From Prochlorococcus sp. AG-679-M23 (GTDB lineage: Bacteria; Cyanobacteriota; Cyanobacteriia; PCC-6307; Cyanobiaceae): a stretch of DNA of 64,000 nucleotides. The notes beneath the pieces were generated by a model that saw only the letters and a program-made list of their open reading frames with translations, ran no database searches and had not been told where the DNA came from. Of the stretch, positions 981 through 24,870 are shown in pieces (position 1 is the first letter of the stretch; each line of letters begins with the position of its first letter). The translations under genes and the position numbers were made by a program. Where the stretch lies: the NCBI GenBank assembly GCA_003208875.1, contig QCUR01000001.1:32001-96000 (forward strand). Reading direction: 5' to 3'.

Positions 981-1200
981 GGTTTCACGTGGGTTTCACG
1001 TGGCGGAATACGTGTTATAATATGTTCAGACCCATTGATATAACTGTCTTTTTTATTAACCTTTTTGGAGGGACTATTGAGTGGGAGTAACTAAAGAGGT
1101 ATAAACCTTGTCATAGTCTAAAAAACTCGGTTAAACGTGAGAATCTCTTATCCTATTTGCAATGGATCTCAACAACGAGGTTAAACGTAGGTTACACGTG
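981..1200 (+). repeat. att-like junction A: 11-bp repeats flanking a guaA 3'-end copy
   Basis: GGTTTCACGTG at 981 and 992; CCATTGATATAAC at 1032; core GGAGGGACTATTGAGTGGGAGTAA (GGTIEWE*) 1067-1090; AAACCTTGTCATAG 1103-1116; GGTTAAACGTG 1129, GGTTAAACGTA 1179, GGTTACACGTG 1190. Confidence 0.8.
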
Positions 1201-2000: not shown

Positions 2001-2070
2001 ATCAGAAACTCCTCACACACTAATTTCTGATCACTAAACGCCCCGATTCGAAAGAATTAGGGTGTTTTTT
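2001..2070 (+). ncRNA. Yfr1/Yfr10-like sRNA
   Basis: Conserved undecamer ACTCCTCACAC at 2008-2018 in hairpin ATCAGAAA/TTTCTGAT; -10-like TAGATT at 1989-1994; intrinsic terminator with T-run at 2037-2070. Confidence 0.8.
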
Positions 2071-2170
2071 AATGCAATTAAGTCTTTTAGGTCGTAACTG
2101 GTATATGTGACAATTAAGTATTATTACTCACCCCTTCCACGAAAAAGAAAGATATGTAATGAATATTTTT

Positions 2171-2736: not shown

Positions 2737-2894
2737 GGTTTCACACGGGTTTCTCACGAGATAATATTTAAAATTATCCCTTGAGATACACTGCTATGAC
2801 TGTATTTTTAATTTTAATTATTGGCGGTAACATAGAGTGGGAATGAAAATAAGCTATAGACCTAGTTATAGTTAAAAAAAATAGGTTTCAAGTA
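2737..2894 (+). repeat. att-like junction B
   Basis: GGTTTCACACG 2737, GGTTTCTCACG 2748; CACTGCTATGAC 2789; core GGCGGTAACATAGAGTGGGAATGA (GGNIEWE*) 2823-2846; AGACCTAGTTATAG 2858-2871; GGTTTCAAGTA 2884. Confidence 0.75.
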
Positions 2895-3003
2895 GGTTTC
2901 AAGTAGGTTTCACTTAGAAAAATTTGTGTTATAATTAACTCAAAACCATTGCTATAACTAATTTTTTATTCACTTTTTTGGAGTGACTATTGAGTAGGAA
3001 TAA
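2895..3003 (+). repeat. att-like junction C (terminal, decayed guaA-end copy)
   Basis: GGTTTCAAGTA 2895, GGTTTCACTTA 2906; CCATTGCTATAAC 2946; core GGAGTGACTATTGAGTAGGAATAA (GVTIE*E*) 2980-3003; no repeats on its right side. Confidence 0.75.
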
Positions 3004-19330: not shown

Positions 19331-20569
19331 TTGATTCAGCTTGAGACTAATTGGTCATTTGTGAGCGATGGTGAAGAAAAACCTGATGGTTTTTCTTTCG
19401 CAGGGATTGCTGCGGGATTAAAGAATTCGAATAAGAAAGACTTGGCTTTAATATTAGCCCCAGAGAATAGCATTTGTAGTGGCTTGTTTACACAATCAAT
19501 AGTTCGAGCATCCTGTGTAGATATTTGTGAACAAAGGATTAAAAAGTCTTCAGGTCTTATAAGAGCAATATTAATAAACTCTGGACAAGCAAATGCCTGT
19601 ACAGGTGATTATGGTATTCAACATACTTTGTGTGCTACGAAGGAGGTCTCACAATTATTAGGAATAAATGAAGAAGAAGTTTTAATGTGCTCAACGGGTG
19701 TAATTGGTATACCCATTCAAATAAAAAATTTAATTGATAATTTACCTAAATTAGTCAAGGAGTTAAAAACAAATAGTTTTCAGAATGCTGCAGAAGCTAT
19801 TTTAACTACTGATTTAGTTGACAAAAAAATAACTATAGAAACATTTATTGAAGGGAGAAAGGTAAAGATATCTGGTTTTGCAAAAGGATCAGGAATGATT
19901 TATCCAAATATGGCTACTATGTTGGCTTTTGTTACATGTGATGTTGGTGTTGATAAAGAACTTTGGGACAAGATGATTTCTATTGCTGTTAAAAAGTCTT
20001 TTAACGCTATTTCGGTGGATGGAGAGACAAGTACTAATGATGCCTTTATAGGAATAAATTCAGGGAAAAAAATTGATAAGAAATTTTTATCAAAGATTCA
20101 AACAGGTATCGATATTGTATGCCAAAGTTTGGCAAAAAATATCGCTAGAGATGGAGAAGGCGCAAATTGCTTGCTAGAGGTTTTGGTTGAGGGAGCAAAG
20201 AATAATTCAGATGCAATTAAGATAGCTAAATCTATATGTAATTCTTCACTGGTAAAAACTGCAATTCATGGTTGTGATCCAAATTGGGGCAGAATTATTT
20301 CAGCTGCTGGTAACTCTGGAATTGATTTTAAATTAGATGTCGTTGATTTATATATTGGAGACTTTCAGATTTTGGAAAAGGGTAAGTTAAATAAATATGA
20401 TTCCAAAAAAGTTGCCAATTACATAAGTACAAAAATGAATGGTAAATATTTAGTTGAGGATATAGTACGTATAGCTCTTAATCTTAATTCTGGTTCAGAA
20501 AAAGGAACTGCTTGGGGTTGTGATTTGTCTAAAAAGTACGTTGAAATAAATAGCGAGTATACGACCTAA
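19331..20569 (+). CDS. argJ: Bifunctional ornithine acetyltransferase/N-acetylglutamate synthase
   Basis: NSGQANACTG, KGSGMIYPNMATML, DGETSTND, DPNWGR; ends VEINSEYTT. Confidence 0.97.
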   Translation: MIQLETNWSFVSDGEEKPDGFSFAGIAAGLKNSNKKDLALILAPENSICSGLFTQSIVRASCVDICEQRIKKSSGLIRAILINSGQANACTGDYGIQHTLCATKEVSQLLGINEEEVLMCSTGVIGIPIQIKNLIDNLPKLVKELKTNSFQNAAEAILTTDLVDKKITIETFIEGRKVKISGFAKGSGMIYPNMATMLAFVTCDVGVDKELWDKMISIAVKKSFNAISVDGETSTNDAFIGINSGKKIDKKFLSKIQTGIDIVCQSLAKNIARDGEGANCLLEVLVEGAKNNSDAIKIAKSICNSSLVKTAIHGCDPNWGRIISAAGNSGIDFKLDVVDLYIGDFQILEKGKLNKYDSKKVANYISTKMNGKYLVEDIVRIALNLNSGSEKGTAWGCDLSKKYVEINSEYTT

Positions 20570-20649
20570 CCCCAAATCCCCTCTGGCACAGTTGATTACA
20601 GAGATATCATAAAGCAGATACCACTAAAATACCACTAAATTTTCATCTA

Positions 20650-21876
20650 TCAATATTTAAAGTTATTTTTTCTGAGGTCTCTATTTAGTGAATTGAAATC
20701 AGTTTTATTTGATGCCAAATCCTTTGACTGCACACTTCCTAGTGCGACTTTCTCTAATCTTTCTAATCTTGCTAAAAGTTGTTTGTTTGTTTCTTCAAGA
20801 GAAATAATTTGTGTCTCAAATTCTTTTTTCTCCTTCATACTAATAAGCGTAGGTTTTACTGGTTTGCCTAATTGCCAGATAAATCCTGCTCTAGCAGAAA
20901 ACTGATCTTCAAAATCACCTGGATAATCTTGACCAGGCATTGTCATTGAAGCAGCGTAATTAATTGATAGTTTTTCATTAACTTTTGAAGCGCAACCTCC
21001 AGAAAAAGCAAAATCTCCTCCATGTGTTCCTGTTCCAAAACCACATGCAAGAGTTGTATCAGTAGGAACTGTTGGTAAACCTGTTAAAGCAGCACTCAAT
21101 GCTCCAACATTATTGATTGATTGTTCTACATCTCTACCATTTATTAATAATTTAGTTCCATTTGTATAGTCAATAGGAATTGGATTTCCTGCAGCATCTT
21201 TTGCATAAACTTTTTGTCTACCATTCTCCTCTTTTGTAATCCAAGAGTTTTCACCTATATGAAGTTCATTCCCTACATATTTAACAAGACTTTTACCGGT
21301 TGACCCTCCCTGACTTATTCCATCATTATCAATTCTAAGTAATTCATCAGTTCCTTCTCCTCCCAATGAAACGAATTTCGTATCTGAGGAATCATCACAG
21401 TCACTGTCTGTTGAGTCACATTTTTTCTCAATAGTATCGTTTAATTTCTGTATCACACCCATATTGATTGGAGTTGCCCCGCTTGGTAATCCTGTTACAT
21501 CAATGTATCCTTCAAATGCGTTTGTATCGATATCATATTTCCGATATCTTTTTCCTTGACCGCCCCCACGATCCCCTTCAAGAAAATAAATTTTTCCATT
21601 ACGCTCATCAACAGTAAAGTCATTAGATGTGAAATTATTAGTACTCACATCTGGAAATATATCTTGTTTTAGTAAAGTTACTGCACCATTTGAAGAAAGT
21701 TTATATAAATTTGAAGTTGAATCTCCTCCATCATTTACTTTAGTAGGATCTTCAGCAACGAAGAATCCTAAATCAGTGGTATTTGTGGAAACTTCACCTG
21801 CTAATGAAGTAAAAGGCGATAAAAGTAATGTAGAAGTAAAAAGAGAACTAACAAGTTTTTTTGAAAAGTTTTTCAT
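20650..21876 (-). CDS. Secreted protein with YadA-like membrane-anchor domain (putative adhesin)
   Basis: Signal peptide MKNFSKKLVSSLFTSTLLLSPFTSLA; GALSAALTGLP...CGFGTGTHGGDFAFSGG...ARAGFIW anchor-like region, then a coiled-coil tail. Confidence 0.7.
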   Translation of the reverse strand: MKNFSKKLVSSLFTSTLLLSPFTSLAGEVSTNTTDLGFFVAEDPTKVNDGGDSTSNLYKLSSNGAVTLLKQDIFPDVSTNNFTSNDFTVDERNGKIYFLEGDRGGGQGKRYRKYDIDTNAFEGYIDVTGLPSGATPINMGVIQKLNDTIEKKCDSTDSDCDDSSDTKFVSLGGEGTDELLRIDNDGISQGGSTGKSLVKYVGNELHIGENSWITKEENGRQKVYAKDAAGNPIPIDYTNGTKLLINGRDVEQSINNVGALSAALTGLPTVPTDTTLACGFGTGTHGGDFAFSGGCASKVNEKLSINYAASMTMPGQDYPGDFEDQFSARAGFIWQLGKPVKPTLISMKEKKEFETQIISLEETNKQLLARLERLEKVALGSVQSKDLASNKTDFNSLNRDLRKNNFKY

Positions 21877-22249
21877 GAGACACAACTTTTTTAAAAAGTG
21901 ATATTGACTTATTAATAATTTAAGTGTAAATACTTAATGATTTAACTATTGCTTAATATTTGTTATTTTTCCAGAAAAATAACTTTTTATGTTCTTACAT
22001 AAGATATTTAATAATTATCAAATTGAGGCAGAAAAAAGTTAAATTAAATAGCAAGTTAATCTTTTAATTAATACTTAAAAAATAAATACTAAACTTAAAA
22101 AATATTTTTAATTGAAACTTTCCATACCGGTTTTATAACACCTATGTAGTGGTATCAATGGATTTCACTTGTAAAAAAAGTTTTGTACCACTAAGATACC
22201 ACCAAATTTCCGAGTAAAAACCTTGTCATAGCAATGCTTTTCAAGGTTG

Positions 22250-22279
22250 GTTGAAATCAATAGCGAATACACTACTTAA
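22250..22279 (+). repeat. Duplicated argJ 3' end (attR-like)
   Basis: GTTGAAATCAATAGCGAATACACTACTTAA encodes VEINSEYTT*; 25/30 identical to 20540-20569. Confidence 0.9.
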
Positions 22280-24232: not shown

Positions 24233-24540
24233 AAGAGAATAAAATAAATTTTATGCAGATATTTTTTTAAGATTTTTTATTTGATTATTGCTCCAAAGTT
24301 CTGCTGGAAAGTTCGAGCCTGTAAATCTTAAGACCTTAGGTTTTAAGTTTATTAATAAGTCATTGATGTTATTTTTTGTGCTCATTTGTATTGAGAATTT
24401 TTAATACGTTAAAATATTTTTTTCGTAATCTTTTCAGTATTTATACTCATAAAATTCAAAAAATAATTTCTAATACATTCTTTTGAAGTAAATTTTACAA
24501 ATTAACAAATTATCTAATACCAAACTTGGTCAATTTAAAA

Positions 24541-24798
24541 TGGTGGAGCCCTTCCAGGCTCCTTGGATCACTTGGTTGATAAGGCTGATATCACCCCATC
24601 TCCTTTGAGATCAAGCAGCAACTGGTGCTGTTTGACGGGAGAAACTAACGATTTTGTTAGCGTTTGTGTTTTTGCTCTAACCGAGCAGGCTTCAGTCATC
24701 TTCCTTACGCCCCGTCGAAACCATTACAACCCCAAAAGGAAATGGAGTTGAGCGGAATCGAACCGCTGTCCGAAACATCGGTTGAGATCACCTAGTCC
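24541..24798 (-). ncRNA. ssrA: Two-piece (circularly permuted) tmRNA
   Basis: T-arm/acceptor CAGCGGTTCGATTCCGCTCAACTCCA (ending 24743) precedes GGGGTTGTAATGGTTTCGACGGGG (starting 24733); tag ANKIVSFSRQTAPVAA* at 24661-24611; outer ends approximate. Confidence 0.93.
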
Positions 24799-24870
24799 AA
24801 TTGGACATTTATATTCTGGCAGGCAAAATGAGTATTGAATAGTTATTTCATTAATTTTTTAAATATATAT

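What the first reader, a model, noticed from the sequence alone, without database searches (positions are those of the whole stretch)
22218..22240. Identical 14-mer shared by att regions of two unrelated integration loci: candidate accessory-factor site
Seen: AAACCTTGTCATAG occurs at 1103-1116 (12 bp after guaA core A) and at 22218-22231 (18 bp before the argJ copy), each between the core and the 11-bp repeats. The longer form AAACCTTGTCATAGCAATGCTTT is pseudo-palindromic. Its reverse complement (CATTGCTATGAC) matches the boxes at 1033, 2789 and 2947. Weaker variants lie at 2858 and about 20574-20595. Inference: a common DNA-bending or architectural protein site (IHF/Xis-like role) used by different integrases. 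It may overlap the PRE1 island repeat reported for Prochlorococcus; I cannot verify that here.
Basis: partly seen in the sequence, partly recalled or inferred. Interest (0 to 1): 0.72.

Follow-up and report, generated by a model that had tools for sequence, protein, structure and literature searches.

The report
Shared motif in picocyanobacterial att arms
The identical 14 bases at two gene-insertion sites are copies of a short conserved DNA signal that many different mobile gene cassettes of marine picocyanobacteria carry next to their recombination point, most likely a docking site for a still unknown helper protein.

Summary
AAACCTTGTCATAG occurs exactly twice in the 1.65-Mb genome, at window 1103 and 22218. 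Each copy lies between an integration core and short tandem repeats. It is a variant of a family motif, consensus AAACCYAGTYATAG, often continued by CAATGC.

In 151 genomes of the genus the degenerate 14-mer matched 43 times. By my reading, 39 matches lie in att-arm, iteron or tRNA-flank settings. These carry at least 10 kinds of flanking tandem repeat, at the guaA 3' end, the argJ 3' end, tRNA-Ala(ggc) and tRNA-Met. Two further cases occur in other genera, one beside tRNA-Ser.

Empty guaA sites lack the motif, and metagenome breakpoints fall at 20569 and 22250. So it belongs to the mobile arm, not to the crossover core. Two integrases found at these loci share no detectable similarity.

The best reading is a common accessory-protein site, placed like the IHF H' site of lambda. 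No binding was tested. It does not fit the IHF consensus as I recall it, and the protein is unknown. Genome-wide frequency is not raised; the signal lies in placement. Not every arm has the motif. The PRE1 link could not be checked.

The parts
1103..1116 (+). Motif copy 1 (AAACCTTGTCATAG) in the P'-type arm of an internal guaA att unit. It lies 12 bp after the core copy, and TCTAAAAAACTC and the 11-bp repeats follow it.
   Evidence: The same position holds the family motif with 0-1 mismatch in 15 of 22 sampled guaA arms.
22218..22236 (+). Motif copy 2 with its CAATG extension (AAACCTTGTCATAGCAATG) in the P-type arm of the argJ cassette. It lies 11 bp after the 11-bp repeats, and the 14-mer ends 18 bp before the core copy.
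   Evidence: Of 8 P arms of this type in other genomes, 7 keep AGTYATAS + CAATS here, six of them with C at the Y position.
1073..1090 (+). Copy of the guaA 3' end (ACTATTGAGTGGGAGTAA), the crossover core of the guaA att unit.
   Evidence: The true guaA ends at C1:24304, outside the window.
981..1002 (+). Two tandem 11-bp repeats (GGTTTCACGTG x2), putative arm-type sites of the P-type arm.
1033..1044 (-). Box CATTGATATAAC. Its reverse complement is the right half of the extended motif (GTTATATCAATG).
   Evidence: 1 mismatch to GTYATAGCAATG
1129..1200 (+). P'-type arm repeats: GGTTAAACGTG (1129-1139), GGTTAAACGTA (1179-1189) and GGTTACACGTG (1190-1200).
2789..2800 (-). Box CACTGCTATGAC (reverse-complement half motif) in the second att unit.
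2858..2871 (+). Motif variant AGACCTAGTTATAG, 11 bp after the degenerate core copy at 2830-2846.
2947..2958 (-). Box CATTGCTATAAC (reverse-complement half motif, exact) before the last core copy at 2986-3003.
2830..3003 (+). Cargo-less att unit. In order: core copy, motif, A-run, three 11-bp repeats (2884-2916), TGTTATAAT (2927-2935), box, core copy. The PD-(D/E)XK gene follows.
   Evidence: Empty guaA sites in 4 of 30 genomes join guaA directly to the sequence that follows 3003.
20540..20569 (+). 3' end of argJ, the core at the gene-proximal border of the argJ cassette.
   Evidence: Metagenome contigs break at 20569.
20618..20639 (+). Two tandem 11-bp repeats (ATACCACTAAA x2) of the P'-type arm.
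22185..22206 (+). Two tandem 11-bp repeats (GTACCACTAAG ATACCACCAAA) of the P-type arm.
22250..22279 (+). Displaced copy of the argJ 3' end. It differs from the gene's end at 5 of 30 positions and marks the distal border of the cassette.
   Evidence: Metagenome contigs break at 22250, and depth rises about 100-fold from there.

Best explanation
**What it is.** The 14-mer is one copy of a conserved arm element, consensus AAACCYAGTYATAG, often continued by CAATGC. The element belongs to the mobile, attP-derived arms of site-specific integrative cassettes and tycheposon-like elements of marine picocyanobacteria.

**Where it sits.** It lies 12-45 bp from the crossover core, usually between the core and class-specific short tandem repeats. 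I read those repeats as arm-type integrase sites; that is inferred.

**How it most likely works.** It is the docking site of a common, sequence-specific accessory protein that helps integrases of different specificity. The protein would bend the arm so that repeat-bound integrase reaches the core, or it would set the direction of the reaction.

**Shown.** Conservation, placement, membership of the mobile arm, and the spread across att classes.

**Inferred.** That a protein binds, that it bends DNA, and whether the host or the element encodes it.
For: 1. **Footprint across classes.** Of 43 matches to AAACCTWGTYATAG in 151 genomes, I read the following settings:
   - 23 in guaA arms;
   - 2 in argJ arms;
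   - 6 in tRNA-Ala(ggc) arms;
   - 5 beside other tandem repeats (ATCTGTTCACA, TATACCAGC, AGGTGCA, AATCGTGAATA);
   - 2 between iteron-like repeats near a DnaB-type helicase gene;
   - 1 after tRNA-Met.

   The flanks differ between classes while the 14-mer stays.
2. **One variant dominates.** 31 of the 43 are AAACCTAGTTATAG, where a quarter would be expected.
3. **Objective repeat test.** 27 of 42 distinct contexts have a tandem 8-13-bp repeat within 90 bp. The same holds for 575 of 4000 random genome positions.
4. **Unbiased samples.**
   - 22 of 30 guaA ends carry the arm, and 15 of those 22 have the motif with 0-1 mismatch at a fixed offset. AGTTATAG and the following A-run are conserved, while motif position 6 and most of the spacer towards the stop codon vary.
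   - 7 of 8 argJ P arms keep it.
5. **Not the crossover.**
   - 4 of 30 guaA ends are empty and lack the motif.
   - Metagenome contigs break at 20569 and 22250, with about 100-fold lower depth between these points.
6. **Integrase-bearing elements keep a variant between repeats and core.**
   - The argJ element of G049 has AAACCCAGTTATTG.
   - The guaA element of G030 has GAACCTTGTTATAC.
   - The G049 integrase and the integrase of the guaA element in G023, which has the same arm type as the G030 element, share no significant similarity.
7. **Other genera of the family.**
   - In a locus of 60% G+C the motif lies between TCTCACATAA-type repeats and tRNA-Ser(cga).
   - In another genus it lies beside GACARGGGTTAGA repeats.
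8. **No sign of another cis function at the two window copies.** The scans found no promoter-like or terminator-like site. Folding gave z -1.24 and -0.18. Rfam found no family over the motif.
Against: - No binding evidence of any kind exists.
- The motif is not enriched genome-wide. The genus search gave 43 matches against about 42 for the reversed control (control counted by hand). This genome has 36 hits at up to 2 mismatches against 6-52 for shuffled motifs and 91 for the reversed motif.
- It is not universal.
  - The P' arms of the ATCACACA-type guaA element lack it.
  - I saw none in the flanks of this genome's tRNA-Thr(ggt) element that I read, and none within 2 mismatches there.
  - The argJ P' arm of this window has only a 5-6-mismatch relic.
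- Its orientation relative to the core is not fixed. It points the same way on both argJ arms but is inverted on the two guaA arms.
- At one locus two copies flank the repeats (L011 and L015).
- It fits WATCAANNNNTTR (recalled) at only about 6 of 9 specified positions.
- The genome has a single HU/IHF-family gene that cannot be assigned to IHF or HU.
- No conserved host-regulon site with the motif recurred in the 151 genomes.
- Genomes of one genus are related, so the counts overstate independence.
Confidence: 0.55

Rival explanations
1. The motif is a cis signal for another step of the element's life after excision, not for recombination. Candidates are part of a replication origin, a packaging or vesicle-loading signal, or a transcriptional operator for the outward-reading TGTTATAAT promoter-like box in the P arm.
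For: - In three genomes the motif lies between about 38-bp iteron-like repeats next to a DnaB-type helicase gene (L007, L025 and L060).
- An extended -10-like TGTTATAAT lies in the guaA and tRNA-Ala P arms and points to the core.
- In elements with an integrase, int starts right after the P' arm, so transcripts would cross the motif in the circular form.
Against: - Single-gene cassettes without replication, packaging or integrase genes keep the motif.
- Its place relative to the promoter-like box varies: downstream of the repeats in tRNA-Ala arms, on the other side of the core in guaA units.
- The simple scans found no promoter or terminator at the motif.
Confidence: 0.15
2. The motif has no function of its own. 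It is a piece of an old arm module that spread among att sites by recombination between elements and survives by descent.
For: - The resemblance reaches about 22-29 bp between the argJ arms and the guaA P-arm box read in reverse (AGTTATAGCAATGSWTTTGAG). This looks like homology of a module.
- Several arm classes share the same overall layout.
- Genomes of one genus are closely related.
Against: - Between most classes only the 14-mer is shared, and both flanks are unrelated.
- Within the guaA class the neighbouring spacer varies while the motif does not.
- It is kept in a 60% G+C genome of another genus.
- Neutral relics of 14 bp would not stay at 12-14 of 14 identity across integrase systems with no detectable protein similarity.
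Confidence: 0.12
3. The motif is itself a recombination site, like dif or lox, for the conserved 389-390-aa 'core' tyrosine recombinase found in most of the genomes. Cassettes would be exchanged at the motif.
For: - In guaA arms the sequence reads TATAA-ACCTAG-TTATA, that is, inverted 5-mers around a 6-bp spacer.
- A 389-aa integrase ORF recurs in most of the 151 genomes.
- Most cassettes have no integrase of their own.
Against: - Island borders and population breakpoints lie at the gene-derived cores, not at the motif.
- The TATAA/TTATA symmetry is confined to the guaA class.
- No motif or arm repeat lies near the core integrase gene.
Confidence: 0.05
4. The identity of the two 14-mers in this window is chance.
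For: - Window shuffles give 2 or more near-matches in 18 of 100.
- The exact state of the two variable positions (T at 7, C at 10) is rare in the guaA class. The T at 7 is also rare in the argJ class, where C at 10 is usual. The letter-for-letter identity is therefore partly luck.
Against: - Both copies are members of a family found at the same arm position in many genomes.
- Random 120-bp pairs share 14 or more bases in 55 of 60,000 trials.
Confidence: 0.02

Closest known systems
IHF sites H2 and H' of phage lambda attP (recalled textbook knowledge; no call)
   Same: - A single short site lies next to the core, between core-type and arm-type integrase sites.
- A-tracts lie beside it.
- Comparable architectural sites also occur in iteron-type replication origins.
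   Different: - The sequence does not fit WATCAANNNNTTR.
- Cyanobacteria are not known to me to have IHF, and this genome has one HU/IHF-family gene of unclear type.
- The orientation of the motif varies.
- Binding is untested.
Tycheposons and cryptic integrase elements of Prochlorococcus islands (bioRxiv 10.1101/2020.12.28.424599; I read passages returned by term searches)
   Same: - Site-specific tyrosine integrases are specific to one target each.
- Partial tRNA repeats mark the borders.
- Targets include tRNA-Ala(ggc), one tRNA-Met and tmRNA.
- Cargo is left behind in islands.
- Non-tRNA-associated integrases are mentioned.
   Different: - The passages I saw describe no shared motif in the arms, no arm-type repeats, and no guaA or argJ targets ('guaA' and 'argJ' gave 0 hits).
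- I could not see the supplements or the journal version, and they may bear on this.
CIMEs, cis-mobilizable elements flanked by att sites but lacking an integrase (Streptococcus thermophilus ICESt3 family; recalled, no call)
   Same: The guaA and argJ cassettes are short cargo segments. They are flanked by complete att arms and have no integrase of their own.
   Different: - Mobilisation in trans is not shown here.
- These are arrays at the 3' ends of protein genes in a streamlined cyanobacterium.
Excisionase (Xis/RDF) binding sites in att arms (lambda X1/X2, Tn916 Xis; recalled)
   Same: They lie close to the core in an arm and influence arm geometry.
   Different: - Xis sites are usually specific to one element family.
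- No HTH_17-type gene is present in this genome.
- Pfam named no Xis-like gene among the longer ORFs (about 175 aa and more) that I scanned in the G049 element. For the G023 element I scanned only the integrase and the large cargo gene. Short ORFs, the usual size of a Xis, were not scanned.

Membership tests
IHF-type architectural site of an attP arm | Lies between the crossover core and the arm-type integrase sites. | tested here: met
   - guaA: core, 12 bp, motif, 12 bp, repeats.
- argJ: repeats, 11 bp, motif, 18 bp, core.
- tRNA-Ala: repeats, 21 bp, motif, 13 bp, anticodon stem.
- G030 guaA element: repeats, 27 bp, variant, 44 bp, core.
- That the repeats are arm-type sites is inferred.
IHF-type architectural site of an attP arm | Matches the IHF consensus WATCAANNNNTTR (recalled from memory). 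| tested here: not met
   The best register, on the reverse strand, is TATAAC-TAGG-TTT. By eye it agrees at about 6 of 9 specified positions. No call computed this.
IHF-type architectural site of an attP arm | Bound and bent by an IHF/HU-family protein of the host. | not testable with these tools
   There is one PF00216 gene, at C6:74805. It scores about 82 bits against the IHF-alpha, IHF-beta and HU-beta models alike, below all their cut-offs.
Arm-type integrase-binding site | Occurs in two or more copies per arm and is specific to one integrase class. | tested here: not met
   There is usually one copy per arm. The same 14-mer occurs with at least 10 different tandem-repeat types.
Core / crossover segment (identity block of attB, attL and attR) | Present in the empty target site and at both borders. 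| tested here: not met
   - 4 of 30 guaA ends are empty and lack the motif.
- The argJ gene has no copy upstream of its core.
- Population breakpoints fall at 20569 and 22250.
Excisionase (RDF) binding site | A cognate small DNA-binding gene travels with the site. | tested here: inconclusive
   - This genome has no PF12728 match.
- No Pfam hit of this kind appeared among the longer ORFs scanned in the G049 element, or in the two G023 genes scanned.
- Short ORFs were not examined, and remnants need no such gene.
   - No relevant paper turned up for PRE1 + Prochlorococcus + repeat.
- The journal version of the tycheposon paper is not held.
Intrinsic terminator or structured RNA | A stable hairpin with a T-run, or a match to an RNA family. 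| tested here: not met
   - No terminator-like site was found.
- Folding gave z -1.24 and -0.18.
- Rfam found only Yfr10 and Cyano-1, both elsewhere in the island.
- One unrelated copy, after tRNA-Phe in G111, does form a terminator-like hairpin.

The most novel reading that the evidence does not exclude
A host-encoded, sequence-specific factor recognises this motif. Candidates are the single HU/IHF-family protein and the conserved 389-aa 'core' tyrosine recombinase. Through it, the cell licenses integrases supplied in trans to move integrase-less single-gene cassettes in and out of fixed landing sites. These sites are the guaA 3' end, the argJ 3' end and several tRNAs. That would amount to an integron-like cassette-exchange system in marine picocyanobacteria, with the motif as its common handle.
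Probability: 0.15. Interest if true: 0.85.

Novelty: new variant of a known kind. Interest (0 to 1): 0.62.

Why it matters
How Prochlorococcus islands gain and lose genes is an open question, and tycheposon-type elements are the leading answer. This motif bears on it in three ways.
- A short motif common to att arms of many integrase specificities gives a concrete bait for finding the missing accessory protein, by pull-down or EMSA.
- It is a practical marker for delimiting element arms and cargo-less att units in genomes and metagenomes.
- It is a handle for testing whether the many integrase-less cassettes at guaA and argJ are still mobilised in trans.

If the binder is a host protein, it would be the first sequence-specific recombination host factor described in cyanobacteria, as far as my searches show.

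Tried and rejected
- **Viral contigs.** I read the contexts of 80 loci. Nearly all looked like coding sequence of unrelated viruses, and none showed the att-arm layout, so the scan was uninformative.
- **Rfam.** Nothing lies at the motif.
- **Promoter and terminator scans, and folding.** Nothing at the two window copies.
- **Earlier findings of this scan.** Nothing on this genome or this sequence. Two notes on other phyla did not bear on it.
- **Literature.**
  - PRE1 search: nothing relevant.
  - guaA + genomic island + Prochlorococcus: one unrelated paper.
  - attP + direct repeats + Prochlorococcus: nothing relevant among the 10 papers listed.
  - The journal version by DOI is not held.
- **LexA, NtcA, RpaB or Pho boxes.** Considered from memory and rejected, because the recalled consensus sequences do not resemble the motif. 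No call tested this.
- **tRNA D-arm relic.**
  - In the tRNA-Ala arms the motif's last bases run into a degenerate copy of the tRNA D-arm.
  - That could explain ATAG there.
  - It cannot explain the same 14-mer in guaA and argJ arms.
- **Dif-like crossover site.** Rejected on border positions.
- **Core integrase locus.** It has no motif or arm repeats.
- **Integrase beside ATACCACTAAA-type arms.** None appeared among the 18 ORFs I scanned, out of 42 ORFs of 140 aa or more in 15 loci. The integrase that serves the window's own two arm types therefore remains unidentified.
- **N-padded pattern.** It was meant to print both flanks of every guaA core copy.
- **RNA contigs (X14).** They cover parts of the argJ cassette, but contigs cannot show transcript ends or strand. 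I draw no conclusion about expression.

Full report
**Setting**

The window is G000:C1:32001-96000 of a 1.65-Mb genome with 31% G+C in 16 contigs. No tool named the organism.

**The observation**

AAACCTTGTCATAG lies at 1103-1116 and 22218-22231. These are the only exact copies in the genome. A one-mismatch copy sits in apparent coding sequence on contig 11.

The first copy lies 12 bp after ACTATTGAGTGGGAGTAA (1073-1090) and 12 bp before GGTTAAACGTG. That 18-mer is a copy of the guaA 3' end. The real guaA ends 7.7 kb upstream of the window, at C1:24304.

The second copy lies 11 bp after GTACCACTAAG ATACCACCAAA (22185-22206). It lies 18 bp before a 30-bp copy of the argJ 3' end at 22250-22279. 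argJ itself ends at 20569.

The reverse-complement boxes at 1033, 2789 and 2947 and the variant at 2858 are real. Two sub-claims are weak.
- The 23-mer is a poor palindrome, with 6 of 11 pairs by my count.
- The region 20574-20595 holds nothing better than a 5-6-mismatch match.

By shuffling alone the pair is not striking. Two pre-chosen 120-bp stretches of this genome share 14 or more bases in only 55 of 60,000 trials.

**Anatomy of the two loci**

The guaA island runs from C1:24304 to window 3003.
- It holds core copies at C1:24287, 26147, 33073 (window 1073), about 34830 (window 2830) and 34986 (window 2986).
- Each internal copy has the same layout:
  - two 11-bp repeats;
  - TGTTATAAT;
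  - a box (CCATTGMTATRACTR);
  - the core;
  - 11-12 bp of spacer;
  - the motif;
  - an A-run;
  - two 11-bp repeats;
  - about 40 bp;
  - two more repeats.
- The motif reads AAAGTCAGTCATAG, AAACCTAGTTATAG, AAACCTTGTCATAG and AGACCTAGTTATAG in the four copies.
- I found no integrase among the island's ORFs of 87 aa or more. The cargo includes an HsdS-like gene, mreB, an EPSP-synthase-family gene, an RHH gene and a sulfotransferase.
- Window 2830-3003 is a cargo-less unit.

The argJ cassette (20570-22249) carries one YadA-anchor-domain gene between a P'-type arm and a P-type arm.

**The motif in other genomes**

The degenerate pattern AAACCTWGTYATAG matched 43 times in 33 of 151 genomes of the genus. 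The reversed control matched about 42 times by my hand count. There is thus no genome-wide excess.

The same holds in this genome. It has 36 hits at up to 2 mismatches. Ten shuffled motifs gave 6-52, and the reversed motif gave 91.

The signal lies in where the copies sit and in which variant they are. 31 of the 43 are AAACCTAGTTATAG. My reading of all 43 contexts is as follows.

| Setting | Matches |
|---|---|
| guaA arms, with GGTTTCACGTG-like or GTGCTCACCCGAAG-like repeats | 23 |
| argJ arms | 2 |
| P-type arms in front of partial tRNA-Ala(ggc) copies, with CTGCGAGC or CTGCGACCA repeats (one arm degenerate) | 6 |
| Beside other tandem repeats (ATCTGTTCACA, TATACCAGC, AGGTGCA, AATCGTGAATA) | 5 |
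| Between iteron-like repeats near a DnaB-type helicase gene | 2 |
| After tRNA-Met | 1 |
| In a terminator-like hairpin after tRNA-Phe | 1 |
| No recognisable feature nearby | 3 |

By an objective rule, 27 of 42 distinct contexts have a tandem 8-13-bp repeat within 90 bp. The same holds for 575 of 4000 random positions. These genomes are related, so the counts overstate independence. The number of distinct repeat classes is the safer measure.

Across 150 genomes sampled from the family, almost all from other genera, most matches looked like coding sequence or gene starts. Two fit the pattern.
- One locus of 60% G+C has the motif between TCTCACATAA-type repeats and tRNA-Ser(cga).
- Another genus has it beside GACARGGGTTAGA repeats.

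**Unbiased samples**

I took guaA ends by homology to the coding 3' end, not by the motif, and read 30 of them.
- 4 are empty. guaA there runs straight into the sequence that follows window 3003.
- 2 have other sequence.
- 2 carry an element of another arm type.
- 22 carry the arm.

Of the 22 arms, the mismatch counts to the consensus at the same offset are 0 (5 arms), 1 (10), 2 (1), 3 (1), 4 (3) and 5 (2). In the alignment, AGTTATAG, the A-run and the repeats are conserved, while motif position 6 and most of the spacer between the stop codon and the motif vary.

I took argJ arms by their repeats. 7 of 8 P arms keep AGTYATAS followed by CAATS, six of them with C at the Y position. Some genomes also have a good copy in the P' arm (L216). 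The extended form AGTTATAGCAATGSWTTTGAG there resembles the guaA P-arm box read in reverse. The letter-for-letter identity of the two window copies is therefore partly luck at two variable positions. The family resemblance is what is real.

**The motif belongs to the mobile arm, not to the crossover**

Empty guaA sites lack it.

In three marine metagenomes, contigs break at 20569 and at 22250, and depth between these points is about 100-fold lower than outside. Some of the sequences that replace the window's arm in those contigs carry a related box, for example CCATTGGTATAACTG 15 bp before 22250.

A joint from 20642 to 22217, with 7 other letters between, was seen at low depth (about 5) in two runs. 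It corresponds to a cargo-less unit, of a kind also seen in genomes (L214 and L229).

**Integrases**

This genome has one full tyrosine recombinase of 390 aa, which recurs as a 389-aa ORF in most of the 151 genomes, and one fragment. Neither lies near the two loci.

Relatives hold three integrase-bearing elements.

| Genome | Site | Integrase | Arm repeats | Motif |
|---|---|---|---|---|
| G023 | guaA | 492 aa | ATCACACA-type | Exact copies lie in the guaA-type unit at its distal end; none in its P' arm |
| G030 | guaA | 499 aa | ATCACACA-type | P arm has GAACCTTGTTATAC between repeats and core; none in its P' arm |
| G049 | argJ | 530 aa | TGTTCACA-type | P arm has AAACCCAGTTATTG between repeats and core, about 95 bp upstream of int |

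The G023 (guaA) and G049 (argJ) integrases share no significant BLASTP similarity (best E 0.55). I found no integrase beside the arm types of the window itself.

**Interpretation**

A 14-mer kept at 12-14 of 14 positions has unrelated flanks. It occurs in arms of at least 10 repeat classes and of integrases without detectable similarity. It always lies in the mobile part, and usually between the core and the tandem repeats. This is best explained as the site of a shared trans-acting protein.

Its place matches that of the IHF sites next to the lambda core (recalled knowledge). A-tracts lie beside it in most classes. Its presence in an iteron region also suits an architectural protein.

Several points weigh against a simple IHF reading.
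- The sequence does not fit the recalled IHF consensus.
- The only HU/IHF-family gene cannot be typed.
- The orientation varies.
- Some arms lack the motif.

An element-encoded factor cannot be excluded, nor can another cis function or pure descent. A crossover role is unlikely on border positions. I put 0.55 on the accessory-site reading.

**Novelty**

The tycheposon preprint, of which I saw passages from term searches only, mentions no arm motif, no arm repeats, and neither guaA nor argJ as a target. I found nothing on PRE1. The journal version and the supplements were not available to me. I therefore rate this as a new variant of a known kind of feature, with that reservation.

Noticed in passing
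window 2001-2080 and 2169-2236: Yfr10 (79.5 bits) and Cyano-1 RNA (69.9 bits) lie inside the guaA island, between two att units. They are therefore carried as island cargo here.
   Followed up: no
window 20570-22249; G000:C1:24304-35003; loci L039, L214-L239: The cassettes at the guaA and argJ 3' ends are mostly single-gene or few-gene cargo flanked by complete att arms. Cargo includes YadA-anchor, PEBP, SAD/SRA-HNH, DUF4379, restriction/modification and helicase genes. They have no integrase of their own, which resembles cis-mobilizable elements or an integron-like array.
   Followed up: partly
window 1013-1021 and 2927-2935; L008, L009 and L041 upstream of the tRNA-Ala arm repeats: An extended -10-like TGTTATAAT lies in P-type arms and points towards the core. 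In a circular, excised form it would read across the core into the P' arm. In G023 and G030 the integrase gene starts right there. The simple promoter scan did not flag it, because no -35 box is present.
   Followed up: partly
window 2830-3003; metagenome joint 20642 to 22217: Cargo-less att units exist in genomes, with the order core, motif, repeats, box, core. At low depth (about 5) they also appear in two metagenome runs.
   Followed up: partly
window 20600-22210: In three marine metagenomes the depth over the argJ cassette is about 100-fold lower than over argJ and over the sequence after 22250. Many different sequences replace it. Some carry AGGTGCA-type repeats or a CCATTGGTATAACTG box.
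   Followed up: partly
window 22219-22225 and 22242-22248: A perfect 7-bp inverted repeat, AACCTTG / CAAGGTT, spans the motif and its extension. Its folding is not better than that of shuffles (z -1.24).
   Followed up: yes
window 24520-24832: The tmRNA gene, a reported tycheposon target (preprint passage), lies 2.2 kb from the argJ cassette. Only a ParA-like gene and an aldo/keto-reductase gene lie between them.
   Followed up: no
G000:C1:357149-361732 (outside the window): Two full tRNA-Thr(ggt) genes lie 4.4 kb apart. An integrase-like N-terminus follows one of them. No motif copy lies within 2 mismatches there.
   Followed up: partly
L038:5759 (G023): The start of the 492-aa guaA integrase gene reads ATGGGTTTCCGTGG. 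It thus overlaps a sequence like the GGTTTCCCGTG arm repeat. This could be chance or an autoregulatory site.
   Followed up: no
L011 and L015 (G116, G037): Two motif copies in inverted orientation flank a pair of ATCTGTTCACA repeats. They are AAACCTAGTTATAG and, about 75 bp on, CTATTACTAGGTTT. Here the motif is not simply 'between repeats and core'.
   Followed up: no
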